Below are positions 4,824-24,023 of a DNA stretch of 64,000 nucleotides, piece by piece (the first letter of the stretch is position 1; the number at the start of each line of letters is the position of its first letter). The translations under genes and the position numbers were made by a program. The notes beneath the pieces are model-generated. The model was given only the letters and a program-made list of their open reading frames with translations, had not been told where the DNA came from and did no database searches. The stretch covers positions 47,561 to 111,560 of IMG/VR virus record IMGVR_UViG_2671180612_000001. One strand, 5' to 3'. Origin of the DNA: a virus (lineage: Duplodnaviria > Caudoviricetes).

Positions 4824-5017
4824 GCACGCCGCTCGCACGTCACCTCGACGCGATCCTCGAGATCGTCGCCAGCTCCGGCCAGGCCGAGCTATCGGACCAG
4901 CTCGCGGACTACCGGAGCCGCGGCGAACTCTACGACGACTTCCTGACCGACCTCGCCAACCTGATCAACGCCTCGAGCGCCGAGTGGGACGAGAGCATGA
5001 GAGGAGACCCGCATTGA
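4820..5017 (+). CDS. hypothetical protein
   Basis: GTGA overlap. Confidence 0.55.
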   Translation: MSTPLARHLDAILEIVASSGQAELSDQLADYRSRGELYDDFLTDLANLINASSAEWDESMRGDPH

Positions 5018-7786: not shown

Positions 7787-9172
7787 TCAGGCGGCAATCA
7801 GCGCCATGTTGAGGACGTCGATCGTGCCGCCGATCGTCCTGCCGTTCAGCGCCCGCGCGCCGAGAATGATGCGGGGCGTTGCCGCCGTCAGCACGAAGGC
7901 CGGGGTCAGCATCAGGCCCGGCCCCACGCTCGCCGGCAGGTTGCCGGACGGGTTGTCGTTCGCCGAGCGGTCCGCCGCGTGGGCGTCGATGTAGCTCATA
8001 TCCGCGACGCCGCCCGAATAGACGGACGTATTCGGGTTGATGCTCGGGCTGATCGCCTCGACGTTCTGGACGCCCGACCAGCCGTCGAACTCCACTGCGA
8101 GGCGCACCCGGTCGCCCACCGAGCGGCCGGAGAGGTTCATCAGGAGGAGTGCGAACTCGGCGTTCGACATCATCGTCCCGCCAAGCACGATGCGCTGGAC
8201 CGGACGCCCGGTGTTCGGTCCCGTCACCTTCGAATAGGCGCGCGTGTGGCCTGTGTCCGCACCGTGGCCGCCGATCCATCCGGACGCGACCGTGCCGCTG
8301 CCTCCCGTGCCTGGCGTCCCGCCGCTCGAATCCAGCGCAGGGTTCGAACTTCGACTGCCGCTCGGATTGTAGACTGCATCGAAGCTGTCGGTGTTCGTCA
8401 TAGCGGTGAGGCCAGCCGAGATTGGGAAGCGAGCCTGGAACACCGGGAGAAGACGAAGAGCGCGCTGATACGCGCCAAGGCCCGTTGTGTGCAGAGGCGC
8501 GGCCGCGACACCGCCCGCCCGGCTTGTCACCATACCATCGAGAGCGCGCCCATCGCCGGAAGCAGGGTTCGCATAGCCCGGCTCCATATCGACCACGCAG
8601 ACGCCGGGCTTGCCTCGGTAGATCTCGCGCATAGCTCGACGGACGTGAAGACGGGCACGGTTCATGTTGGCGTTCGGAAAGACGCTGCCGCTGCTGTCAC
8701 CGCCAGCCGAGGGGGTCTCCAGGATCAGAAACCGTCCTGCGGCGCGGCAGAGCTGATAGGCAGTTTCGATCGCCCCAAGTTCCTCGGATACGACGTTCGG
8801 ATTGTTAGCGAGGAAGCCATTGATCGAGGACGGCATAACGATCGTATCGGCGTCGTCTTTTGCCAGAATGCCACGAAGGCGTGCAACGATCTCGGGCGTC
8901 TTCTGTCCGACGATGCCATAGTTGCCGGTGCCGTCGAAATCGAAGGACTGGTGCGTGAGGTAGCGCAACCAGTTGAGCTCCCCGACTACAAGATAGCGAT
9001 TGCCGCTCCCTCCCGCCGCACGGTTCCAAACGCCGCTCCCGGACGAGAACGTGTGCCGGAACATGAAGCTGTCTCCGACAACAATCACTCGTCGGTTGCG
9101 GGCGGCGTCCAGCGCGAGTGAAGAGACGCCGCTACCGGAATTGCCGCCGATGAAAAGACCAGTGCCGATCAT
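7787..9172 (-). CDS. SGNH/GDSL hydrolase domain protein, possibly virion-associated
   Basis: VVGDSF block I, GIVG block II, SING block III, PLH block V; beta-rich C-terminus. Confidence 0.7.
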   Translation of the reverse strand: MIGTGLFIGGNSGSGVSSLALDAARNRRVIVVGDSFMFRHTFSSGSGVWNRAAGGSGNRYLVVGELNWLRYLTHQSFDFDGTGNYGIVGQKTPEIVARLRGILAKDDADTIVMPSSINGFLANNPNVVSEELGAIETAYQLCRAAGRFLILETPSAGGDSSGSVFPNANMNRARLHVRRAMREIYRGKPGVCVVDMEPGYANPASGDGRALDGMVTSRAGGVAAAPLHTTGLGAYQRALRLLPVFQARFPISAGLTAMTNTDSFDAVYNPSGSRSSNPALDSSGGTPGTGGSGTVASGWIGGHGADTGHTRAYSKVTGPNTGRPVQRIVLGGTMMSNAEFALLLMNLSGRSVGDRVRLAVEFDGWSGVQNVEAISPSINPNTSVYSGGVADMSYIDAHAADRSANDNPSGNLPASVGPGLMLTPAFVLTAATPRIILGARALNGRTIGGTIDVLNMALIAA

Positions 9173-9173
9173 G

Positions 9174-10811
9174 TCAGCGGTTCCACGCCGGCCGCGGGCT
9201 CGCCACCTTGCGGAAGACGAGCGGCGAGACCTTGATCTGGAACGCCTTGGACGCCTCGCGGCGCCAGGACATCGCGAGGTTGAAGAGGTCCATGTAGGAG
9301 CTCACGCCCGTCGCAGCGTCGAGACCCTCCATCTTGTGCGGCAGGGTGCGCAGCAGGAGCTTCTCACCGTTGCGGAACGGGATCGGCACGCTGTTCTCCG
9401 CGCCCCGACGGTTGACGCCGCCCGTGACCGGCATCGTCAGCCCGCCGCGGTAGCGGAGCTGCAAGGACGCGCCGACGAAAATCGTCTCCTCGGACAGAAG
9501 CTCGACCTCGCAGAGCGCTTCCATCCAGTCGCCGGCGACGATCCCGAGGGCCGAGTAGCTCGGCATGACCGGCGTGAGCGACAGCGAGTTGACGCCAGCA
9601 GCCGGAGCGGCCGGGGTGATGGTGAAGACCTGCTTCTCGGCAACGCCGGCCTCGATCACCTCCTTCGAGGCGACGATCGCTTCGGTCTGGCCGGCACCGC
9701 GGTTCACCGTGACGCTCGTTGCGACGCTGCCGGTGATCCCGCCGTTCTTGGTGCCGTTGGTGCCGAGGAACCCGCCCGTCGCGAGCAGATTGCCGGCGCG
9801 CGAACGATCCACGAAATCGCCTGCCGTCACCATGGAGCGCAGCACGTCGAGGAGCATCCCCGGTTCGGAGTTGCGGATCCAGTGACCGACCGACGTCATG
9901 TGGATGCCGTCCTCGAGGATCGGCTGGCCGGACGCGATCGCGTCCCGGATGAGCTTGCGATCATCGACGACCTTCACGCCCTCGCGAGAGCCGAGCGTCG
10001 CGCACCAGGCGCCGAAGTTTTCGAGCGTCACATGGCGCGGATCGCCGACCTTCCAGTCGGTGCGCGGGGTCGGCATGAGGACCACGGCCCAGATGCCGGC
10101 ATAGCGGAGCATGGTGAGGATGCGATCGAGCCGGAGCTTCAAGGTCTCGAGCGTGATCGGGGTCTTGCCGTCGGCCTGGCGCCGGCTGTTCACGTCGTTG
10201 GTGCCGATGTCCACGACCACGATGTCGGGCCGCATGTCGATCGTGCGCTTCAGGCGCTCGTAGCCGCCGTTGAGGTCGTCACCGCCCAGACCTGCCTGCG
10301 ATCCGGCGAAGCCCTTGGCGTCGCCCGCGCGGTTCTGCGCATAGTCCTTATCGAACCAGGAGTTGACGTTGAAGCGCCCGTCCATGGACTGAAGAAGGCC
10401 CATGTCGCCGAACGCCGCGCCGGTGTTGATGTCGATGCGGTTGTGGAGCGCCGGCGGGACCGCGTTGCCGAAAGCGTAGCCCGAGCGCGCGATGAAGCTG
10501 TGGCCGAGACCCATGACCTTGGCGCCGGTCTTCAGTGGAAGAGCGGGAAGAGTGCGCGGGGTCGCGAAAGGAGCGCTGGTCGGCAGAACCTCTGCGGTGA
10601 GAGACGCGCCGTCGGGATCGGCGGGAAGGGTAAGCTTCCAGAAGCCGAACTCGTCGGCATGAATCGTTCCGGCGAGCGAGGCGCCGGCCTTGACCGTCAC
10701 CGGCACGCCAGCACGCGCCCGGCCCGAGACGACGAACGTCTTGACGTCATAGGCGTCGATCGTGGGAACCGTATCAGCGGGGATCTTCGAGTAGGGACCG
10801 TATCCGGACAT
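9174..10811 (-). CDS. SGNH/GDSL hydrolase with Ig-like N-terminus
   Basis: GHSF, GTND and DGIH motifs. Confidence 0.75.
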   Translation of the reverse strand: MSGYGPYSKIPADTVPTIDAYDVKTFVVSGRARAGVPVTVKAGASLAGTIHADEFGFWKLTLPADPDGASLTAEVLPTSAPFATPRTLPALPLKTGAKVMGLGHSFIARSGYAFGNAVPPALHNRIDINTGAAFGDMGLLQSMDGRFNVNSWFDKDYAQNRAGDAKGFAGSQAGLGGDDLNGGYERLKRTIDMRPDIVVVDIGTNDVNSRRQADGKTPITLETLKLRLDRILTMLRYAGIWAVVLMPTPRTDWKVGDPRHVTLENFGAWCATLGSREGVKVVDDRKLIRDAIASGQPILEDGIHMTSVGHWIRNSEPGMLLDVLRSMVTAGDFVDRSRAGNLLATGGFLGTNGTKNGGITGSVATSVTVNRGAGQTEAIVASKEVIEAGVAEKQVFTITPAAPAAGVNSLSLTPVMPSYSALGIVAGDWMEALCEVELLSEETIFVGASLQLRYRGGLTMPVTGGVNRRGAENSVPIPFRNGEKLLLRTLPHKMEGLDAATGVSSYMDLFNLAMSWRREASKAFQIKVSPLVFRKVASPRPAWNR

Positions 10812-10814
10812 CGA

Positions 10815-11093
10815 TCAGCCCTTCGTCACGATTGCGGAGCCCGGCAGACGCTTGGCGCGGGCATAGACGGTCTCGGTGGTGAGAGAGCCGAACGAGAAGG
10901 AGCGATGCGCGCCGGCGCCGACCGTATGGGCCTCGTCGTTCTGCGGATCGGGAAGCTCGCTATCGAGGCGAACGAGGATGTCGGTGCCCTCGCTCTCGAC
11001 CAGGAGCTCCGAGACGCCAGAGGCAATCTCGGTCCACTCGTCGCGGGTGAGGTTGAAACGCTTGGTCGGCTGGAAAGCCATGATGAACTCCAT
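10815..11093 (-). CDS. small beta-rich hypothetical protein (start may be 11081)
   Basis: First gene of the reverse operon, downstream of the box at 11119. Confidence 0.6.
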   Translation of the reverse strand: MEFIMAFQPTKRFNLTRDEWTEIASGVSELLVESEGTDILVRLDSELPDPQNDEAHTVGAGAHRSFSFGSLTTETVYARAKRLPGSAIVTKG

Positions 11094-11118
11094 TGGGAAC
11101 AGGAGCCACCATCATAGC

Positions 11119-11134
11119 AAGTAAGCGCTTACTT
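11119..11134. promoter_or_regulatory. perfect palindromic copy AAGTAAGCGCTTACTT of the window-wide operator-like box
   Basis: One of 21 intergenic copies of AGTAA-N4-TTACT; lies between divergent genes. Confidence 0.8.
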
Positions 11135-11204
11135 AACCAAGGGGAACCATATGGAAAGAGGGAAGAAGGCAGGCTGCGCGGGCACCAGAATCAGGAGAGA
11201 CCCG

Positions 11205-11402
11205 GTGAGCAAAGACCTGGACGAGTTCGATCGCCTTCTCGCGGCCTACACGGAAGCGGCCTACAAATACGGAGCTGCCGAGGAGAGCAAGAAGATCAAG
11301 CGCCTGGCGGACGCATCACAGGACAGGGGCCTGACACACAACGAGCTCCGGACATTCGTCGCCGATCGCCTCAAGAGGCTCGAGGAAGCAGAGCGCTACT
11401 AG
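11205..11402 (+). CDS. hypothetical protein
   Basis: AGGAGAG RBS, GTG start. Confidence 0.55.
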   Translation: MSKDLDEFDRLLAAYTEAAYKYGAAEESKKIKRLADASQDRGLTHNELRTFVADRLKRLEEAERY

Positions 11403-12320
11403 CGCTTCGATTAAGGGCGATGGACCTTTACACAGAGGTCCAGTCCGACCCAGGCCAGGCTGACAAGCGTAAACCAGGCGGTTGACGCAAACCCTTGTGA
11501 GACTGGAAACGACCTTTACGCGAGCTTTACGCCCGGAGAACCTGAAACCTCGATTTCGGGAAAGACGTAAACGTCGACCCGATCGCGCGCACAGACCAAG
11601 AGAACAGACCAGCGCAGCGCAAAGAGCACCAGAAACGCACAGAGCAGCTCACCAGCGCGATCCAAGCGTCTGACGCGCACAGAGAGAGCGAAACACTCGG
11701 GAAGCTATTCAGCGACGAACCCTGACGATTTCGAGAAAACAGACCAAACGCATACCCCGCAGCATCGAAAACATATCCGAGATCATCACCCATAGAGAGC
11801 GACAGAGCACGCAGACCCATAAGAGACGCATGAGCACCGGAAAGCAGCACAGCACCCATAGAGAGGGACAAGCGCACGCTTCCGGCATGTGAGAGCAGAG
11901 AGCACGCATAGAGGGGCATAGGGGGAGATAGTGAGCTGGTCTGGTGGGGTTGGCGCCTCGCCACAAACAGCCTCGAACTTCCAGACCGACCACCTCAACC
12001 CGAACGCACGCGCCGTAAGCATCCGCTTTCAATCCACACGCGCTCATGAGACAAACGATCAACGACGCTTGCAGAGCTGGGCGAGCGTTCGTGTGTTGCT
12101 GACGGCAACGTCGAGGTCCACCAGCTACCAGCCGGTCTCCGGCTACCTGATCCGACAACGCCACAATTTCAGGGCTCGCTTGATCCTACGGGGTCGGCGA
12201 GCCTCTTTTTTGGCTGACGGAAAAATTAGGAACGGAGGCACTCCCCTGTAGGAGCATAGCCGTCACGGGGAACCCATGCCCCGCGTCCTTGGAACGCCGA
12301 TCCCCACACGAGCCGGAGAT

Positions 12321-12366
12321 CCATGGGTTTCCACGGCGCCCCGTGGTTTTCCGAGGAGGCCCGCGG
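12321..12366. repeat. 10-bp-phased CCNNGG array (5 units)
   Basis: CCATGG 12321, CCACGG 12331, CCGTGG 12341, CCGAGG 12351, CCGCGG 12361. Confidence 0.8.
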
Positions 12367-12393
12367 GGTTTCCCGTGCCGGAGACGTCCGCCC

Positions 12394-12470
12394 CTAATCG
12401 CCTCTCGTCTACATTAGAAACCTGTCTAGTAGATAACTTACCTTTGTAGGTGAGTGGCATTTAGCTCCGG
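12394..12470. repeat. AT-cored inverted-repeat element, copy 1 (degenerate)
   Basis: TCTACATTAGAA...TGTAGGTGAGTGGCATTTAGCTCCGG, similar to 26741-26833. Confidence 0.7.
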
Positions 12471-12680
12471 CGCGATCCTTTGCACGGAAACGCGCTCACG
12501 CACGACGGCTCCCGGCCCGCTCCTAAGTAATTCCTTCCGTATATCCGCCCGAAACGCGCCGACAAGACCCCGCGACTACACGCTTCAAGCCCATATCGTG
12601 ATGCTTCATATTCACAATGCAAGCAACGAAGAAAACAAGAGCTTGCAAGCGATAGCAACGCACACACAAGGGTTTATCAA

Positions 12681-13550
12681 ATGTCGAAGCGCACCGCGAA
12701 GAACACCGCCGCCCAGATCGAGAACGTCGTCCTCGAGGGCGAGATCATCGCTCCGGTCGTCGAGCAGATCACCGAGACCAACGAGCCCACGGAAGCCGAG
12801 CTCGACGCCATCGAGACCGCCGAGGTCCAGTCCGAAGCCTACCAGGCCCAGGCGTCCGAGATCGACGAGGTCAACCCGGACCAGGCACCGGCAGGCGACG
12901 AGCCCGAGCTCCTCACCGACGAGCCGGAGCAGAAGACGCTCGCCCAGATGATCGAGGGCATCGAGCGCGACCACGCCGTCGCCATGCAGCACCACATCGC
13001 CGCGGAGATCGACGACCGCATGGACTACGAGAGCGACAAGGGGAACGAGACGATCCAGCGCTCCTTGAAGAGCTCCCGCGCGAAGATGACCACCGACCTC
13101 CTCGCCGCCTACGCCTTTGCCGCGACGAGCGTCGACCCGTCGGTCTTCAACGTCGGACGCGCCTCGACGAACCGCTACAACGTCTACGCCATCGACAAGG
13201 TCGCGGACCTGGCGCGCTCGCTCGCCTCGGGGCACTTCATGAAGAACGCCATCAACCGCGCTGTGTGCCGCTCGCTCTTCACGTTCCGCCACTCCGGCGA
13301 GCGCTTCACGATGGAGATCGCCAAGGCAGCGTGCTCCGACAAGATCCGCGTGTCGCCGGCGATCTCGCGCCATCTGATCCGTCACACGGTCTCGGCGTCG
13401 ACCGCGCCCACCCAGGCGTCGTCCACCATGCAGGCCCTCGAGACGCTCGGCATCGTCAAGAACGTCGGCACCGCCCGCGGCGCCGTCTACGAGCTGACCG
13501 ACACGGCGCAGGCGCGCGCCCTCGAGGAGCTCTGCACGAAGGCAGCGTAA
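12681..13550 (+). CDS. hypothetical protein with acidic N-terminus; C-terminal domain paralogous to 15536-16132
   Basis: Long ORF with its own upstream AT-rich region and terminator; manual alignment. Confidence 0.8.
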   Translation: MSKRTAKNTAAQIENVVLEGEIIAPVVEQITETNEPTEAELDAIETAEVQSEAYQAQASEIDEVNPDQAPAGDEPELLTDEPEQKTLAQMIEGIERDHAVAMQHHIAAEIDDRMDYESDKGNETIQRSLKSSRAKMTTDLLAAYAFAATSVDPSVFNVGRASTNRYNVYAIDKVADLARSLASGHFMKNAINRAVCRSLFTFRHSGERFTMEIAKAACSDKIRVSPAISRHLIRHTVSASTAPTQASSTMQALETLGIVKNVGTARGAVYELTDTAQARALEELCTKAA

Positions 13551-13561
13551 GGGAGAGGAGG

Positions 13562-13588
13562 GAAAGGTGCTTCGGCGCCTTTTCTTTG
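13562..13588 (+). terminator. intrinsic terminator
   Basis: AAAGGTGC-TTCG-GCGCCTTTTTCTTT. Confidence 0.7.
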
Positions 13589-13762
13589 CGCCTGGCTCGC
13601 GGGGCGGTTTGGTATGGCTGGGACTAAATGGGAGCCGCCCTGTGTCGCGGGGTTTTTAGGAACGGGGCGCTCCCCTGTGTAGGCGAGGACACCGTCGGGC
13701 CGGCGCGGTAGACAGAGGAAAGCCGTGGGTGCCCACGGGAGCCGCCGAGCCGGAGGAATGCC

Positions 13763-13981
13763 ATGGAACTGATCCTCGACATGCAGGCAGAGGAAGGGGA
13801 ATCGCAGCAGGAGTTGGACGCTCTCATCACCCTGGCCTTCATTTACAAGCTGAAGGTCAAGACGGAAGGAGGCGGGAAAGCAGAGCGCCCCTTCGCACGG
13901 GTTCATGGGGTAATCGACCCTGCCGTCTTGCATCGGATCCTGTCGGAGATGCAGCCGGACCCGAAGCCTGAAAGCCCCTGA
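13763..13981 (+). CDS. hypothetical protein
   Basis: GGAGG RBS. Confidence 0.4.
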   Translation: MELILDMQAEEGESQQELDALITLAFIYKLKVKTEGGGKAERPFARVHGVIDPAVLHRILSEMQPDPKPESP

Positions 13982-14053
13982 ACAAGCGTCTGTGACCCCA
14001 TAGCGAGCAATGCGACTCTCATCGTGTCAGCAACACGAGAGCGAGACATCGCC

Positions 14054-14302
14054 ATGCAGATCGCACAAGCTCCCCAGACGCCCGCCGAGATCGCTGCCCT
14101 CCGGATCTCCCTCGACTTCCTGTCGTTCCAGCAGGGCCACTTCGAGCCCTACAACCCCAAGCGCGTCGCGCGCACCATCGGCGAGATCCGGCGCCGGCGC
14201 GCCCTCGAGCTCCAGACCCAGCGTGCCGCGCACCTCATCAAGCGAATGTGCATGGGACTGGTCCTAGTCCTGGCAGGCGCAGGCGTGGTCTCTCTCCTCT
14301 AG
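14054..14302 (+). CDS. hypothetical protein with C-terminal TM helix
   Basis: TGTCAGCAACACGA leader; hydrophobic C-terminus. Confidence 0.6.
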   Translation: MQIAQAPQTPAEIAALRISLDFLSFQQGHFEPYNPKRVARTIGEIRRRRALELQTQRAAHLIKRMCMGLVLVLAGAGVVSLL

Positions 14303-14584
14303 GCGCCTGTCACAACCTGCAGGCGCTCAACGCGGGCCAGGCGAGTCACCCAACAGCTCGACCTGGTCCGCACCCGTCCAGGCCCGTCCAGGTCCAGTAA
14401 GGCCAGGCACGGGTCTTTTCGCGTCAGGCTGCGCCCCGCGGGCCTCCTCGGCGGCTCCCGGCCGAGCTCTTCCCCACCAGACACCTCTCGACCGCGCTCA
14501 ACGTGCCGTCGCTGCACGCTTATAGCCCGTAAGTCGCTGATTTATATTCATAATTGTCAGCAACACGAAACGAGAGAGTTTCAC

Positions 14585-14923
14585 ATGACCCGCACTGCTT
14601 CGCTCAACGCTTCCGCCTCGATCGTCGCTCGCTTCGCCGATGCCATCGAGCTTGCCGATGCGTTCAAGGTCGATCATGTGCCCGCCAACATCGACGCCGA
14701 CCTGTTCAAGCGCTCGTCCGAGGGAACGCTGCGCTCCGCTGGCGACCGCTTCCGGCTCGCGATCCAGCATTCCGGACTGTCGCCCGACGACATGCCTGCT
14801 ATTCGTGACCAGGGGATGCAGCTCGTCGAGGAGCGCAAGCGCATTCGCCGGGAAGAAGCCGCTCACCGTGCCGCCAAGCGTGAAGCCGCGCTCGCGAGCC
14901 GGGAAGAGCGCGAATACGCTTAG
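14585..14923 (+). CDS. hypothetical protein
   Basis: Same TGTCAGCAACACGA leader, GAGAGAG RBS. Confidence 0.7.
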   Translation: MTRTASLNASASIVARFADAIELADAFKVDHVPANIDADLFKRSSEGTLRSAGDRFRLAIQHSGLSPDDMPAIRDQGMQLVEERKRIRREEAAHRAAKREAALASREEREYA

Positions 14924-15535
14924 ATCCAGCCTAGCGGAGAGCGTCGCGTCACAGCGGCGCTTTCTTGTGGGCTGGGCGAGCGGGACGGGTCGGGGCGGAG
15001 ACGGATCAAGGGGGCGGGGAGGGGACGCGCCTGCCTCGAGGAATTTTGGAACGGCTGGGCTAAATGGGACTCGGGGAAACGACTGCGGGGCGTCGTTTCC
15101 CCTTGTTGCCGCCGGCCCACCTCCGACTGCCCCGTGGGTGCCCGCGGCGAATACCGTGCCAACGGAAATTAGGAACGGGGAGGAAAGGACGTGGGCGCCC
15201 AAGATCCGGACGGGGATGGGCCTATGCGGCGCCCCGAGGGCGCCCGCGGGGCGGGGGCGCGCGTAGGACGCCCCGCGACGGGGAGCAAATCACAAAACCG
15301 GGGCAACGCGTAGCTGACTACGGGTCAGTCGGGGCGCGCGACTAGGACGACGCGCGTCGGGGAGCAAGTCACGAAAGCGGGGCTCACAGGGGCGTGACGC
15401 AATTCATTTTCGTTCGTCGCGACTCATTCCTTTTCGTTTTTGCGTAAGTAAGCGCTTGCTTATTCATGTGCGTCGTATAAATTCATTTGTGTCGCACACA
15501 GACGACATCAGCAACACACAAAGAAAGACACTCAC

Positions 15536-16132
15536 ATGACGCAGATCGCTTCTAACGACTTCGCTGCTAAGCTCGCTGCATACGCTGACGCTGCTAAGCT
15601 CAACATCGTGACGCGCAAAGACAAAGTGTCTGACGCGAACGCTAAGCACTTCGATCGCTCGATCGCGATGCTTGCGAATGAGACGATCGCACAAGCTCTT
15701 ATCGCTGCTGACGTCGATGCGTCGCGCTACACGTCGCAAGTCTATGCGTTCAAGAAAGAGAACGCTATTCTTGACTATCTCTTCAATAATAAGACGATGC
15801 AGAACTATATCGCAGAGATTTTTGTCAGCGCGTTTCGTAAGCATCACGTCAAGAACGCAGCGTTGACGAAGAGCGAAGCGAAGCTTGCGCTTAACAAGTC
15901 TGCGAAGCTTAGCGAAAGCGAAGCAACGTATATCGTGCAACAGTCGAAAATCATCGATGAAAGCACTGTGAACGCGCAGCATAAGACGACGCTAGACGCT
16001 TTCGTCAATCTGCGTATGTTCTCGCAAGTCTCGACGTTCGAAACGCGCGACGCTTACGCAATCAATCTCGAAAGCGACATGACGCAGCGCATGATTGCGC
16101 GTCTTAACATCGCTGATATGTTCGCTGCGTAA
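15536..16132 (+). CDS. hypothetical protein encoded without any GG/CC dinucleotide (no Gly, Pro, Trp); paralog of 12681-13550
   Basis: 198-aa ORF with upstream box, leader motif and downstream hairpin. Confidence 0.85.
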   Translation: MTQIASNDFAAKLAAYADAAKLNIVTRKDKVSDANAKHFDRSIAMLANETIAQALIAADVDASRYTSQVYAFKKENAILDYLFNNKTMQNYIAEIFVSAFRKHHVKNAALTKSEAKLALNKSAKLSESEATYIVQQSKIIDESTVNAQHKTTLDAFVNLRMFSQVSTFETRDAYAINLESDMTQRMIARLNIADMFAA

Positions 16133-16148
16133 ATCGACACAGACGCTC

Positions 16149-16175
16149 GCTGACGCGCTTCGATAGCGCGTCAGC
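16149..16175 (+). terminator. GG/CC-free hairpin after the 15536 gene
   Basis: GCTGACGCGCT-TCGAT-AGCGCGTCAGC, 11-bp perfect stem; no clear U-tract. Confidence 0.55.
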
Positions 16176-16489
16176 TACTCGCGAAGCTCTCACGCTCAAA
16201 CGCTCGCTCTTGAGCTTCTATGACGATCCCAGAGCGTGAGACACCCCAGCCACAGCGCGCGACACTCGCCCAATCCCTCCTCGCGCATCGCGTGACATCG
16301 GGGACACAGCCCCAGGGGACGACGTGTGCTGGGTGGACACACTCTGTTGCACGGGGACCATGTGGCGGGAAGGACACGAGGTCCTAGAAGCCCCGCCACA
16401 GGTCGAAGGGGATGCCTTTTGAGGGCGAGACACTCCCCGGCCTGGACCCTTAATCCTACATCGACTTAGAGTAGATCGGAGGGGCTGCG

Positions 16490-17131
16490 ATGGATGGTTT
16501 GGCATCGCTGTTTAACACGCTGAAGACGCCGTCGTTTGCGGCTGGCTTGGTCTTCCTCATCGGAGGCATATTGGTTCGGTTCGGGATCTACCTCGGCGAG
16601 ATCCAAGAGTCGGCATTCGATGGAAGCATCCGCACCTACGCCGGCATATCGATAGCCCTCGGAGCGACGATCTTCGCCGTTGCGCTCCTGCTCCGAGCCG
16701 CTCACTGGTTGCGAAAAGTGCCCGCGATCAGGGCAGCACGAGCGAAGAACATACGGGAGCGTGAGATCGTCCTGGAGGCCTCGCGCGCACTCAGCATGGA
16801 CGCCACGACGATCCTCTACGGATTGCTGCGAAACGACAGTAGGACATCGCGCGGCTTCAGCGCGCCGGCGATGAACGAGCTTCAGCAGCTCGACATCATT
16901 CGCCCTGCCGGGGACTACAAATACAAGATTAACGAGTCCGTCATGATCGAGATCACCCCTCAAGTCTGGGATCAACGGGATCGGATCAAGCTGGAGCTCG
17001 TAGAAGCGCTCAAGGATTATACGGGTAATCCGCTCTTCGATGACGAGGCATACGAGATCCTCGTCGCTCAGCAGATCGCTGCCAGAGATCGGCAAGGCAG
17101 AGGTCGTCAGCATGACTGGATGGGGTTCTGA
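16490..17131 (+). CDS. SieB-like superinfection exclusion membrane protein
   Basis: Two N-terminal TM helices then a soluble domain (LS..A..IL...L..L.II...ITP.VW); lower GC. Confidence 0.5.
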   Translation: MDGLASLFNTLKTPSFAAGLVFLIGGILVRFGIYLGEIQESAFDGSIRTYAGISIALGATIFAVALLLRAAHWLRKVPAIRAARAKNIREREIVLEASRALSMDATTILYGLLRNDSRTSRGFSAPAMNELQQLDIIRPAGDYKYKINESVMIEITPQVWDQRDRIKLELVEALKDYTGNPLFDDEAYEILVAQQIAARDRQGRGRQHDWMGF

Positions 17132-17232
17132 TTGCGCTGGGAACGACGCTCTGGGGTAGGCGCCCCGATGCCCCGTGGATCTGACCCTTAATCCGCCGCT
17201 GCCGCGCGCCTGCGGCGCACGGAGCTCGAGGG

Positions 17233-17631
17233 CTACTGCGACAAGGGCATGTCACCGAGGAGCTGGTCGACCTTCTGGCGCGTCTCCATCCGCTTGGCGA
17301 TGTCCTTTGCCACCTCGGCACAGTAGGCGTCCCTGATGCCGACGTCCTTGCCGAACTCGCCCTCGACGTATCGACGCGCGAAATCCCAGTGCTTCTTGAG
17401 ATTGGGCTTGGTCAATGAAGCCGCAACGCGCTTGAAGGTGGTCTCCTTCTCAAACGTCATCATGGCGTCAGTGACGGACAGACCCTGCGAGTTACAGATC
17501 TGGCGCTGCTGGTAGAGGATGAGCTCCCTACCTTGCCATGAAGCTGGCATCTCCTGCGCGAGAACCGTCTCTGCAAGGAATGCGAGCACCAAGAGCGCCG
17601 CGATGGCGCCCAGCACGATCCGTTTGATCAT
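17233..17631 (-). CDS. secreted/periplasmic hypothetical protein
   Basis: Signal peptide, two Cys; paralog of the neighbour. Confidence 0.7.
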   Translation of the reverse strand: MIKRIVLGAIAALLVLAFLAETVLAQEMPASWQGRELILYQQRQICNSQGLSVTDAMMTFEKETTFKRVAASLTKPNLKKHWDFARRYVEGEFGKDVGIRDAYCAEVAKDIAKRMETRQKVDQLLGDMPLSQ

Positions 17632-18008
17632 TGCGGAAGCTCCCCGATTGCGGCCGGGAGTTCTTCCGACACCAGCCTCCTATCGATGAGCGATTGGGCG
17701 AACTCGGCGCAGCGCTCCTTCGGAGACTTCTCCTTGGCGTATTCGGTCTGGCTCGTCCTTGCGGTTTCGGCCCAAATTTTCTGTCGCTGCTCCTGCGAGA
17801 AGTTTGCGAAGAGCCGCTGCTGTGCATCGACGACCTTTCGACGCGACTCCTCGACCATTCCATCGGTGATCGAGAACTTGTCCGCGTTGCAGAGCCTCAT
17901 CACCTGATAGGGCAGGAAGAGCTGACGCAGCATTTCATCGGAGAGCTCTTCGGCGAGCGCCGGGACAGTTCCGGCTAGAATCGCCAGCGCAGCGCCGGCG
18001 ACCCTCAT
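17628..18008 (-). CDS. secreted/periplasmic hypothetical protein
   Basis: Signal peptide ending ALA, two Cys. Confidence 0.7.
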   Translation of the reverse strand: MRVAGAALAILAGTVPALAEELSDEMLRQLFLPYQVMRLCNADKFSITDGMVEESRRKVVDAQQRLFANFSQEQRQKIWAETARTSQTEYAKEKSPKERCAEFAQSLIDRRLVSEELPAAIGELPQ

Positions 18009-23365: not shown

Positions 23366-24023
23366 GATCCCGCAGGTCGAGCTTCGCGATGTTTCCGAGC
23401 TCGTCCCCTACGAGAAGAACGCCAAGAAGCACTCCGAAGCCCAGGTCGGGAAGCTCGTGAAGCTGATCCTCAAGGTCGGCTGGACGCAGCCCATCATCAC
23501 CGACGGCGACATGGTGATCATCGCCGGCCACGGCCGGCGCCTGGCCGCGCTCGAGATCGCGCGCCAGACGGGCGTCTCCAAGATCCCGGTCGTGGTCCGC
23601 TCGGACCTCACCAAGGAGGAGGCCGACGCGCTGCGCCTCGCCGACAACCGCGTCACGTCCACCGAATACGACATGGGCATGATCGAGGAGGAGCTCCGGC
23701 GCCTGGCCGCGGCCGACTTCGACATCGACATCATCGGCTTCGACGCGGCCGAGATCGAGTTCACGACGGCTGACCTTGCCGCCTTCGACGAGAGCGCCTT
23801 CGTCGAGGACGTGTCCTCGGCCGTCGAGAGCCAGCAGGAGGGCAACAAGGCCGCGGCCGAGAAGGTCGACGAGACGGCCGCGCCCGTCGTCGACGCCCTC
23901 GGCTTCAAGCGCATCACGATCGCCGAGAGCCGGCAGCTCCGCGACCTCGTCGGCCGCATGGAGACGCGCACCGGCAAGCAGGGCATCGCCGCTCTTCTCG
24001 AGCACCTGGGAGCAACCGTCTGA
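23358..24023 (+). CDS. ParB/Srx-like N-terminal domain protein
   Basis: PYEKNAKKH, IIAGHGRRLA, LADNR. Confidence 0.88.
   Translation: MTKIPQVELRDVSELVPYEKNAKKHSEAQVGKLVKLILKVGWTQPIITDGDMVIIAGHGRRLAALEIARQTGVSKIPVVVRSDLTKEEADALRLADNRVTSTEYDMGMIEEELRRLAAADFDIDIIGFDAAEIEFTTADLAAFDESAFVEDVSSAVESQQEGNKAAAEKVDETAAPVVDALGFKRITIAESRQLRDLVGRMETRTGKQGIAALLEHLGATV

What the first reader, a model, noticed from the sequence alone, without database searches (positions are those of the whole stretch)
15431..16227. About 800 bp gene unit completely free of CC and GG dinucleotides
Seen: a line-by-line scan finds no CC between 15431 and 16227 and no GG between 15393 and 16299. The void covers the upstream region, operator box, leader, a 198-aa ORF and its downstream hairpin, and the protein has no Gly, Pro or Trp. 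Even at about 50% GC, roughly 100 CC/GG would be expected, and the rest of the window is full of them. Both words are absent, so GG is missing from both strands, which points to selection on dsDNA rather than on mRNA or protein. Inference: the gene must be expressed while GG/CC-containing DNA is blocked, cut or modified. Options: (a) the phage's own packaging-linked modification targets GG/CC, so an early gene must stay unmodified; (b) evasion of CC/NGG PAMs (type I-F, Cas9) or of CC..GG restriction sites by an anti-defence gene; (c) escape from a GG/CC-binding silencing protein.
Basis: partly seen in the sequence, partly recalled or inferred. Interest (0 to 1): 0.95.

Follow-up and report, generated by a model that had tools for sequence, protein, structure and literature searches.

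The report
Phage gene cassette without GG or CC
One small, self-contained gene unit of a soil phage-plasmid is written entirely without the two-letter DNA words GG and CC, so its protein has no glycine, proline or tryptophan; distant relatives keep the same rule, which points to a still unknown factor that reads this short word.

Summary
Window 15430-16228 (799 nt) has no CC or GG. About 100 are expected, and the next longest gap in the 111,560-bp virus record is 82 nt.

It is not chance, an artefact or a protein-level effect. I examined 18 distinct loci of the same gene, down to about 25% protein identity. They include three cultured Rhizobium phages (V1VFA-S, B1VFA, RHph_X66) and three plasmids. 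Of these, 13 have a CC/GG-free stretch of 692-1333 bp, 3 are broken by one CC, and 2 carry several CC but almost no GG. Synonymous-codon shuffles show that codon junctions avoid the words too.

The unit runs from promoter to hairpin and encodes a 198-aa winged-helix protein. A normally encoded paralog lies 2 kb upstream. The flanks are the most G/C-tract-dense DNA of the genome.

Breaks of the rule are 43 CC against 2 GG on the coding strand.

Best reading: a target-free cassette that stays expressible while an unidentified GG/CC-reading activity hits other nucleic acid.

My searches found nothing in print. This scan has noted the same ban before on other phage DNA.

The parts
15430..16228 (+). 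CC/GG-free cassette (799 nt), holding a putative promoter, leader, ORF and hairpins
   Evidence: 0 CC/GG against about 100 expected. It is unique in the 111,560-bp record.
15446..15461 (.). 16-bp palindrome AAGTAA-N4-TTGCTT, one copy of a genome-wide motif, lying over the putative -35
   Evidence: 34 copies in the record against 0.85 in shuffles, and 28 of the 34 are intergenic., I10. What binds it is unknown.
15456..15483 (+). Candidate host-type promoter read by eye (TTGCTT, 16 nt, TAAATT)
   Evidence: Read. The consensus scan did not call it. The homologous unit in L003 has a 10-of-12 sigma-70-like match, TTGACA-17-TAGATT.
15508..15535 (+). Leader beginning TCAGCAACAC, purine-rich, without a GG-containing Shine-Dalgarno sequence
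   Evidence: D4: the same leader word precedes the genes starting near 14055 and 14585.
15536..16132 (+). ORF P0001, 198 aa, with no Gly, Pro or Trp; helical N-terminal part plus a C-terminal winged helix
   Evidence: AlphaFold2 model with mean pLDDT 91.3; winged-helix matches at Z 7-8.2 over residues about 73-198. No Pfam or PHROG family.
16149..16175 (+). Perfect 11-bp inverted repeat (hairpin) 17 nt after the stop codon; a second weaker hairpin follows
   Evidence: I19. It has no T-run, so it is not a canonical intrinsic terminator.
14941..15429 (.). Upstream flank: the most G/C-tract-dense 500 bp of the genome, with GG far more frequent than CC on the + strand, including two 52-nt direct repeats (15253-15304, 15332-15383)
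   Evidence: 35 tracts against a mean of 11.4 per 500 bp., D3; 46 GG and 14 CC in the last 260 nt.
16228..16489 (.). Downstream flank rich in C-tracts and G-tracts, up to the next ORF
   Evidence: 12-25 CC/GG per 100 nt directly after the void.
12681..13550 (+). Normally encoded distant paralog P0027 (289 aa, 67% G+C, contains Gly and Pro) with an acidic N-terminal extension
   Evidence: hhalign probability 97.9%, E 3e-13 against the family profile. GG 43 and CC 86; conserved as gp035 beside the island of V1VFA-S.

Best explanation
The cassette is a target-free expression unit. Selection has removed every GG and CC from one complete transcription unit. An unidentified activity that reads this two-letter word, whether a nuclease or nickase, a base- or backbone-marking enzyme, an RNase or a binding protein, therefore finds nothing in it. 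The winged-helix regulator it encodes can then still be made when other DNA or RNA in the cell is being hit.

The word seems to be read in a strand-linked way. GG in the coding strand (GG in the mRNA, CC in the template strand) is the hard rule. CC in the coding strand is a softer rule that two sub-lineages have relaxed. A nick or lesion placed at CC on the template strand would fit, and so would an RNA-level reader of GG.

Shown: the ban, its conservation, its action at the nucleic-acid level, the strand asymmetry, and the fold of the product.
Inferred: that a reader exists, what it is, and when it acts.
For: 1. The ban is complete and unique to this unit in two whole genomes. In the window's record the gap is 799 nt and the next is 82 nt. 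In V1VFA-S it is 1278 nt and the next is 73 nt.

2. It is conserved. I examined 18 distinct loci: the window, L003-L014, L020-L022, L026 and L027 (L015 and L019 repeat L014 and L011). Of these, 13 have a CC|GG-free stretch of 692-1333 bp, 3 are broken by a single CC, and 2 have 10 and 30 CC with 0 and 2 GG. Protein identity falls to about 25%.

3. The 26 representatives found among 1.84 billion proteins hold 2 Gly, 2 Pro and 0 Trp in about 5,200 residues.

4. The constraint is on nucleic acid. With the protein and its codon set kept fixed, shuffling synonymous codons gives 9-15 junction GG and 4-16 junction CC. Observed junction GG is 0 in 14 of 15 loci and 2 in L007. In all 15 loci none of 3000 shuffles came as low as the observed GG count.

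5. The ban belongs to the unit and not to one protein. Longer islands hold extra unrelated small ORFs that also lack the words: V1VFA-S gp038, a 61-aa ORF in L003, and about 630 more bp in pLM21S1.

6. The ban reaches beyond the likely transcript. It starts 69 nt upstream of the -35 in L003. It runs about 190 nt past a hairpin-plus-T-run in V1VFA-S, read from the sequence printed.

7. Strand asymmetry. Breaks are 43 CC against 2 GG. In L007 and L009 junction GG is 2 and 0 against 11.5 and 12.9 expected, while junction CC is 9 and 5 against 15.7 and 10.7.

8. The lineage does evolve by deleting nuclease words. GTAC occurs 0 times against 129 and 153 expected in the two genomes, and 0 times in the 16 other loci.

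9. Precedents exist for readers of very short words and for transcripts that escape by lacking them. CmdT marks GA in mRNA (PMC11618068, passages read). The 14 E. coli mRNAs that lack GCU include ghoT, which MqsR does not cleave (PMC4905990, one passage read).
Against: - I identified no reader of GG/CC. In the 40 of 141 predicted proteins that I scanned against Pfam, I found no clear nuclease, nickase, RNase, deaminase or ADP-ribosyltransferase. The rest were not scanned.
- The rest of the phage genome is full of GG/CC and must itself survive, so the model needs a second, unshown protection or a time window.
- The asymmetry rests mainly on two related sub-lineages (L007, L009) plus three single sites.
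- If it acts on dsDNA symmetrically, the asymmetry does.
- There are no expression data. No RNA run holding the stretch was listed.
Confidence: 0.5

Rival explanations
1. Self-avoidance by a DNA coat or silencer. The product, or its paralog, is a low-specificity winged-helix protein that binds CC/GG half-sites, for example phased CCNNGG and G/C tracts. It loads on the flanks and spreads over GC-rich DNA. Its own gene carries no half-site, so it is never covered.
For: - Winged-helix fold, with linker-histone, MarR and kleisin-type matches at Z 7-8.2.
- The flank is the most G/C-tract-dense 500 bp of the genome.
- Five CCNNGG lie at exact 10-bp spacing at 12321-12366, read.
- The only G4 motif of V1VFA-S lies 68 bp from its island.
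- A normally coded paralog is conserved next door.
Against: - A dsDNA binder cannot tell CC from GG, yet breaks are 43 CC against 2 GG.
- DNA binding was not tested.
- Plasmid maintenance genes full of GG/CC must stay expressed in lysogens.
- The genome-wide palindrome AAGTAA-N4-TTACTT is a likelier specific operator for a dimeric winged-helix protein.
Confidence: 0.15
2. The phage's own DNA mark. Virion or replicated DNA is modified at GG/CC steps, and the mark hinders host RNA polymerase on the template strand. One regulator gene therefore has to be free of sites.
For: - A strand-linked effect is expected for a template-strand lesion or mark (asymmetry).
- An operon with two ParB_N proteins and a small ABC-type ATPase lies beside the terminase (lead e1-6234740).
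- A DUF4942 protein is present in the record. That this domain is methyltransferase-like is my recollection and comes from no call.
Against: - The authors found no DNA methyltransferase gene in pLM21S1 (PMC5537653, passage read).
- The lineage relies on word avoidance genome-wide (GTAC 0 of about 130-150 expected), which a heavily modified genome would not need.
- Illumina libraries of V1VFA-S and B1VFA assembled normally (PMC12509600, whole text).
- The ParB/ABC genes have ordinary partition-like annotations.
Confidence: 0.12
3. Evasion of host restriction enzymes or CRISPR PAMs (option b). Removing GG and CC removes every site or PAM that contains them, which protects an anti-defence or first-needed gene.
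For: - Extreme avoidance of GTAC and of many 6-bp palindromes genome-wide shows strong restriction pressure on this lineage.
- Some earlier notes of this scan place the cassette at the DNA end that may enter first. I did not test this.
Against: - One cut anywhere else in the genome is just as fatal, so a local purge gains little unless the rest of the DNA is still outside the cell.
- Site- and PAM-based targeting is strand-symmetric, unlike the data.
- GCGC, CGCG, TCGA and GATC are abundant in the islands.
- The hosts span several genera, so one shared PAM type is unlikely.
Confidence: 0.1
4. No function. The void is a by-product of a local mutational process (for example CC-directed deamination or GG oxidation), of foreign origin, or of selection for a protein without Gly, Pro and Trp.
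For: - G+C drops from 64% to 50% in the island, as hypermutation of CC/GG would cause.
- The cassette's orientation differs between the window and V1VFA-S.
Against: - The ORF is intact and the fold is confident.
- The rule holds at 25% identity in 18 loci.
- Junction avoidance was matched in 0 of 3000 shuffles for GG in every locus.
- The edges are sharp and abut the densest G/C tracts.
- The normally coded paralog shows that the fold tolerates Gly and Pro.
Confidence: 0.03

Closest known systems
Restriction-site (short-word) avoidance in phage genomes
   Same: A short word is removed by selection. This lineage does it genome-wide for GTAC (0 against 129 and 153 expected) and for several 6-bp palindromes.
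   Different: Here the word is only 2 nt. The ban is confined to one 0.7-1.3 kb unit and costs three amino acids. It is stricter on one strand, and no cognate enzyme is known.
Transcripts that escape sequence-specific mRNA interferases or mRNA-marking enzymes (GCU-less mRNAs and MqsR; GA and CmdT)
   Same: These enzymes read 2-3 nt in single-stranded RNA. An mRNA without the word is spared (PMC4905990 and PMC11618068, passages read). This fits the hard rule on coding-strand GG.
   Different: Most members also ban CC, and they purge DNA outside the likely transcript. No RNase or ADP-ribosyltransferase with GG specificity was found here or, to my recollection, described.
Frequent-cutting nickases and nucleases of chloroviruses (Nt.CviPII at CCD, CviQI at GTAC).
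   Same: They show that enzymes with 2-3-nt specificity exist and that a nick falls on the strand that carries CC. That would make template-strand CC (coding-strand GG) the critical site. GTAC is also the word banned genome-wide here.
   Different: No homologue was sought or found in this record. Chloroviruses protect themselves by methylation, not by avoidance.
First-step-transfer (pre-early) DNA of phage T5 and the leading early region of T7. Recalled, and named as closest known in earlier notes of this scan.
   Same: A small set of genes with host-type promoters must act before the rest of the genome is safe. These phages have 3.6-3.9 kb terminal repeats (PMC12509600).
   Different: I could not determine the position of the cassette relative to the DNA ends. 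T5 and T7 early regions are not known to ban a dinucleotide.
Winged-helix DNA-binding regulators (MarR, Fur, PadR-like, linker-histone globular domain)
   Same: The C-terminal half of the model has this fold (Z 7-8.2, rmsd 2.1-4.3 over 73-98 residues).
   Different: No sequence family matches. The Z range is common for unrelated helical proteins. Binding and its target are untested.

Membership tests
Restriction-site avoidance | A word is strongly under-represented against composition-based expectation | tested here: met
   0 against about 100 expected in the unit. Junction test: 0 of 3000 shuffles as low.
Restriction-site avoidance | The word is the recognition site of an enzyme of the host or the element | not testable with these tools
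   No enzyme with GG/CC specificity was identified. Host genomes were not searched for one.
Restriction-site avoidance | Avoidance is strand-symmetric and holds over the whole exposed DNA | tested here: not met
   The ban is confined to 799 of 111,560 bp. Breaks are 43 CC against 2 GG on the coding strand.
mRNA-interferase-resistant transcript (MqsR/MazF type) | The word is absent from the transcript's sense strand only | tested here: inconclusive
   GG is the hard rule on the sense strand. But CC is also absent in 13 of 18 loci, and the void reaches outside the likely transcript.
mRNA-interferase-resistant transcript (MqsR/MazF type) | A cognate endoribonuclease is present in the element or the host | not tested
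   None was seen in the 40 of 141 proteins scanned. V1VFA-S encodes an RtcB-type RNA ligase, which is only a hint that RNA cleavage matters.
T5-type first-step-transfer region | It lies in the terminal repeat at the DNA end that enters first | not testable with these tools
   The record has no end repeats. No usable reads were listed. PMC12509600 gives repeat lengths but no coordinates.
T5-type first-step-transfer region | Host-type promoters drive the genes | tested here: inconclusive
   A 10-of-12 sigma-70-like match in L003. None was called in the window or in V1VFA-S; the candidates there are read by eye.
Winged-helix DNA-binding proteins | Helix-turn-helix followed by a beta-hairpin wing | tested here: met
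   Model pLDDT 91.3, with helix 142-158 and strands 162-165 and 173-176. Many winged-helix chains match at Z 7-8.2.
Winged-helix DNA-binding proteins | Binds DNA | not tested
   No binding computation or experiment was run.
Anti-CRISPR/Aca operon or PAM-depleted locus | A known Acr/Aca family, or a CRISPR type with a CC/GG PAM in the hosts | tested here: inconclusive
   No Pfam or PHROG family for the product. The padloc and Acr libraries were not searched. Hosts were not screened for CRISPR.

The most novel reading that the evidence does not exclude
A widespread superfamily of phage-plasmids of about 110-120 kb lives with an undescribed enzyme, its own or its hosts', that acts at a two-nucleotide word: CC on the template strand, or GG in RNA. 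Candidates are a dinucleotide-specific nickase, a nucleic-acid ADP-ribosyltransferase or deaminase, or an RNase. The switch regulator of these elements has been rewritten in a 17-amino-acid alphabet, so that it is the one gene this enzyme cannot touch. The G-tract and C-tract arrays on both sides act as sinks or barriers for the same activity.
Probability: 0.35. Interest if true: 0.95.

Novelty: new variant of a known kind. Interest (0 to 1): 0.85.

Why it matters
A complete ban on a dinucleotide over a whole transcription unit, kept for so long that the protein family has lost three amino acids, is a very strong selective footprint. I found nothing like it in print: searches, and the genome announcement PMC12509600 (whole text read) does not mention it.

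The footprint implies a reader of a 2-nt word on DNA or RNA that matters for infection or lysogeny in common soil and rhizosphere elements. Such a reader would be new enzymology, and a potentially useful tool as a frequent nickase or marker.

The case is directly testable. Three carrier phages and their Rhizobium hosts are in culture. It also offers a natural example of a folded, functional protein built from 17 amino acids.

Tried and rejected
- **Protein-level selection.** Rejected by the synonymous-codon junction test and by purged non-coding parts.
- **Chance or assembly artefact.** Rejected by 18 independent loci, including finished phage and plasmid records.
- **A broader class of GG- or CC-poor genes in this genome.** Not found. 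Of 141 rough gene calls, only this ORF is at 0. Only the short leaders of three neighbouring genes show GG-free runs of 146-208 nt.
- **Known RNA families in the flanks.** None in window 11000-18000 at E<=1. In relatives only the neighbouring tRNAs scored well. There are no tRNAs in the window.
- **Function by sequence or fold.** No Pfam or PHROG family. PDB Foldseek gave no match at E<=0.001. BFVD gave two uncharacterised phage proteins. VIA-align gave generic winged-helix matches only. The Atlas gave unnamed clusters.
- **A third paralog suggested by note e1-6234741.** The 551-aa ORF that I took for it gave hhalign probability 4.8%. Not supported for that ORF.
- **Search for a modifying enzyme or nuclease.** I scanned 40 of 141 predicted proteins against Pfam. 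They gave ParB_N x2, an ABC-type ATPase, ParA, an SF2 helicase, HATPase_c_3, DUF4942, SbcCD-like, RecA, gp32, RNR, dUTPase and CobT/MoxR-like. None is a clear reader of GG/CC.
- **Other banned words inside the islands.** Only GTAC (0 against 12 expected), which turned out to be genome-wide.
- **Expression data.** No RNA holder was listed, and no run held more than 0.09 of the sampled words.
- **The 'tip of packaged DNA' idea from earlier notes.** Could not be tested. Contig starts relative to the gene differ between records.
- **Not used.** Complex prediction, because I claim no binding. I did not ask for supplementary files, so coordinates of the terminal repeats in supplements or figures of PMC12509600, if any exist, were not seen.
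Full report
**The observation**

In the window, a CC starts at 15429 and the next at 16228. A GG starts at 15391 and the next at 16300. The stretch free of both words is therefore 15430-16228 (799 nt). The next longest such gap is 79 nt in the window and 82 nt in the whole 111,560-bp virus record of which the window is bases 47561-111560.

The stretch is 49.8% G+C against 64.4% for the window. From its own composition about 56 CC and 43 GG are expected, and none is seen. CG and GC are nearly doubled. No other dinucleotide pair shows a comparable gap. Among 141 rough gene calls made by my own simple script, only the ORF at 15536-16132 has GG and CC at zero; all others lie at 0.27-1.09 of expectation. 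The ORF encodes 198 residues without Gly, Pro or Trp.

**Conservation**

A word-indexed search of 5.8 billion proteins found one relative, P0002 (43% identity). Its DNA (L003) carries a CC/GG-free stretch of 1180 bp. That stretch covers a sigma-70-like promoter (TTGACA-17-TAGATT), the homologue, a second small ORF and hairpins.

A weak tblastn hit (25% identity, E 0.01) led to the cultured Rhizobium phage V1VFA-S. There genes 039 (the homologue) and 038 (85 aa, also without Gly, Pro or Trp) sit in a 1278-bp void. This is the only such void in its 118,231 bp; the next gap is 73 bp.

A profile search of 1.84 billion representative proteins gave 26 family representatives. Together they hold 2 Gly, 2 Pro and 0 Trp in about 5,200 residues.

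I obtained DNA for 18 distinct loci in all: the window, L003-L014, L020-L022, L026 and L027 (L015 and L019 repeat L014 and L011).
- 13 have a CC|GG-free stretch of 692-1333 bp.
- 3 (L008, pRlX6 = L022, RHph_X66 = L027) are interrupted by one CC.
- L009 has 10 CC and no GG.
- L007 has 30 CC and 2 GG.

The carriers are elements of about 110-122 kb in Hyphomicrobiales. Three are cultured siphophages with 3.6-3.9 kb terminal repeats and parA/parB/repC (PMC12509600, whole text read). Others are plasmids of Sinorhizobium, Shinella and Rhizobium, plus a contig of Ancylobacter.

**Level of the constraint**

I kept each protein and its own codon set and shuffled synonymous codons. This gives 9-15 GG and 4-16 CC at codon junctions. 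Observed junction GG is 0 in 14 of 15 loci tested and 2 in L007, and in every one of the 15 loci none of 3000 shuffles was as low as the observed count. Junction CC is 0 in 13 of 15.

Non-coding parts are purged too, as are unrelated second ORFs in the longer islands. So the rule is on the nucleic acid of the whole unit, and the missing amino acids are its consequence.

The void also reaches beyond the likely transcript. It starts 69 nt upstream of the -35 in L003. It runs about 190 nt past a hairpin followed by a T-run in V1VFA-S, read from the sequence; the simple scan only partly captured that hairpin.

**Strand asymmetry**

All breaks of the rule taken together are 43 CC against 2 GG on the coding strand. 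In L009 the protein is almost the same as in L008, so its 10 CC are mostly silent changes.

At codon junctions alone, L007 and L009 have 9 and 5 CC (15.7 and 10.7 expected) but 2 and 0 GG (11.5 and 12.9 expected). GG on the coding strand is therefore the hard rule, and CC is a softer one. A reader that sees symmetric double-stranded DNA does not predict this.

Two kinds of reader would fit. One is a reader of the mRNA or of the non-template strand. The other is an activity that nicks or marks the strand bearing CC, so that only template-strand events stop transcription. The caveat is that the asymmetry rests mainly on two related sub-lineages.

**Anatomy and context**

The unit holds the following parts:
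- A 16-bp palindrome (15446-15461) over a by-eye promoter. The palindrome is one of 34 copies of AAGTAA-N4-TTACTT in the record, against 0.85 expected by shuffling; 28 of them are intergenic, and V1VFA-S has 44.
- A leader starting TCAGCAACAC, shared with two neighbouring genes and lacking a GG-containing ribosome-binding site.
- The ORF.
- A perfect 11-bp hairpin.

The 500 bp just upstream are the most G/C-tract-dense of the whole genome, with 35 tracts against a mean of 11.4. In 10 of 11 loci the upstream flank has more GG than CC, and in 10 of 11 the downstream flank has more CC than GG. Part of that downstream bias may simply reflect the coding strand of the next gene.

The AlphaFold2 model is confident (pLDDT 91.3). 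It has a helical N-terminal part and a C-terminal winged helix (Z 7-8.2 to many winged-helix chains). No specific family was found.

Following a lead from earlier notes of this scan, I confirmed that the normally encoded ORF 12681-13550 (P0027, 289 aa, 67% G+C, with Gly and Pro) is a distant paralog (hhalign 97.9%, E 3e-13). Its orthologue gp035 sits beside the island in V1VFA-S. Its family has at least 278 members, on contigs of 104-119 kb among others. So the fold tolerates the missing residues, and the cassette gene is a rewritten copy. The cassette's orientation relative to its neighbours differs between the window and V1VFA-S, as expected for a self-contained module.

**What reads the word**

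I could not find it. Forty of 141 predicted proteins were scanned against Pfam without a clear candidate. V1VFA-S encodes, among others, an RtcB-type RNA ligase, NAD salvage enzymes, a sigma-70-like factor and ParB-like proteins. The authors of PMC5537653 found no DNA methyltransferase gene in pLM21S1 (passage read).

One finding bears on the question. GTAC is absent from the whole record (0 against 129 expected), from all of V1VFA-S (0 against 153) and from all 16 other loci, and several 6-bp palindromes are also at zero. This lineage thus answers nucleases by deleting their words, which makes 'deletion of a word to escape a reader' the natural reading of the cassette as well.

Precedents for readers of 2-3 nt exist. 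CmdT marks GA in mRNA (PMC11618068, passages read). MqsR cuts at GCU and spares the ghoT transcript, one of 14 E. coli mRNAs without that word (PMC4905990, one passage read). Chlorovirus nickases such as Nt.CviPII at CCD are recalled from memory.

**Verdict**

The best reading (confidence 0.5) is a target-free expression cassette. Its regulator stays expressible while an unidentified, strand-linked GG/CC-reading activity acts on other nucleic acid.

The rivals are:
- self-avoidance by a low-specificity DNA coat encoded by the cassette or its paralog (0.15)
- the phage's own DNA mark (0.12)
- evasion of host restriction or PAMs (0.10)
- a non-functional by-product (0.03)

I found no description in print. 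This scan has reported the same ban before on other phage DNA. Some of those notes guess that the cassette sits at the end of the packaged DNA. I could not test that here.

Noticed in passing
whole record (window 1-64000 and upstream); V1VFA-S whole genome; L003-L027: GTAC never occurs: 0 against 129 expected in the 111,560-bp record, 0 against 153 in V1VFA-S, and 0 in the 16 other loci. Several 6-bp palindromes are also at zero (CCCGGG, GGGCCC and CACGTG in both genomes; ACCGGT, CAGCTG, GCATGC and TGGCCA here). CTAG is at about one third to one half of expectation.
   Followed up: partly
34 sites in the record, e.g. window 740, 11119, 15446, 20218, 22363, 26858, 28850, 32478: The 16-bp palindrome AAGTAA-N4-TTACTT, always with a 4-nt spacer, occurs 34 times (0.85 expected). 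28 of the 34 are intergenic and sit before operons of all modules. V1VFA-S has 44. It is probably the operator or promoter element of a genome-wide regulator.
   Followed up: partly
window 12321-12366 (also 13723/13733, 15132/15142, 15234/15244 according to note e1-6234751): Five CCNNGG hexamers lie at exact 10-bp spacing, about 320 bp upstream of the paralog gene. I read these directly from the sequence; the other pairs were not checked.
   Followed up: partly
window 11559-11839, 12514-12670, 13957-14103, 14460-14668: GG-free runs of 139-208 nt on the + strand, with CC present, cover the putative promoters, leaders and first codons of the neighbouring + strand genes and a non-coding stretch. 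This is the same polarity as the hard rule in the cassette.
   Followed up: no
L004 (V1VFA-S record 23562-23594): The only G3+N1-7 x4 quadruplex motif of the 118-kb genome lies 68 bp from the island. In the window's record one of four such motifs lies at 14969-14995, inside the dense flank.
   Followed up: no
L022 (pRlX6) about 4890-5000: The plasmid copy of the cassette gene seems to have lost one A in an A-run near codon 27. The annotated CDS therefore starts later. This is either a frameshift or a sequencing error.
   Followed up: no
window 7787-10811, minus strand: Two adjacent large GDSL-lipase-like genes (461 and 545 aa; PHROG 6102 'lipase', Pfam Lipase_GDSL_2).
   Followed up: no
L004, L010, L014, L020, L026, L027, upstream of the cassette: In the V1VFA-S-like relatives, 2-3 tRNA genes (Met, Asn, and a Trp-CCA called pseudo in two records) lie divergently next to the cassette. 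The window has no tRNA. V1VFA-S also encodes an RtcB RNA ligase and NAD salvage enzymes.
   Followed up: no
window 16490-17131: The ORF just downstream of the cassette has a weak, sub-threshold match to superinfection-exclusion protein SieB (E 8e-4, 19.5 bits against a cut-off of 26).
   Followed up: no
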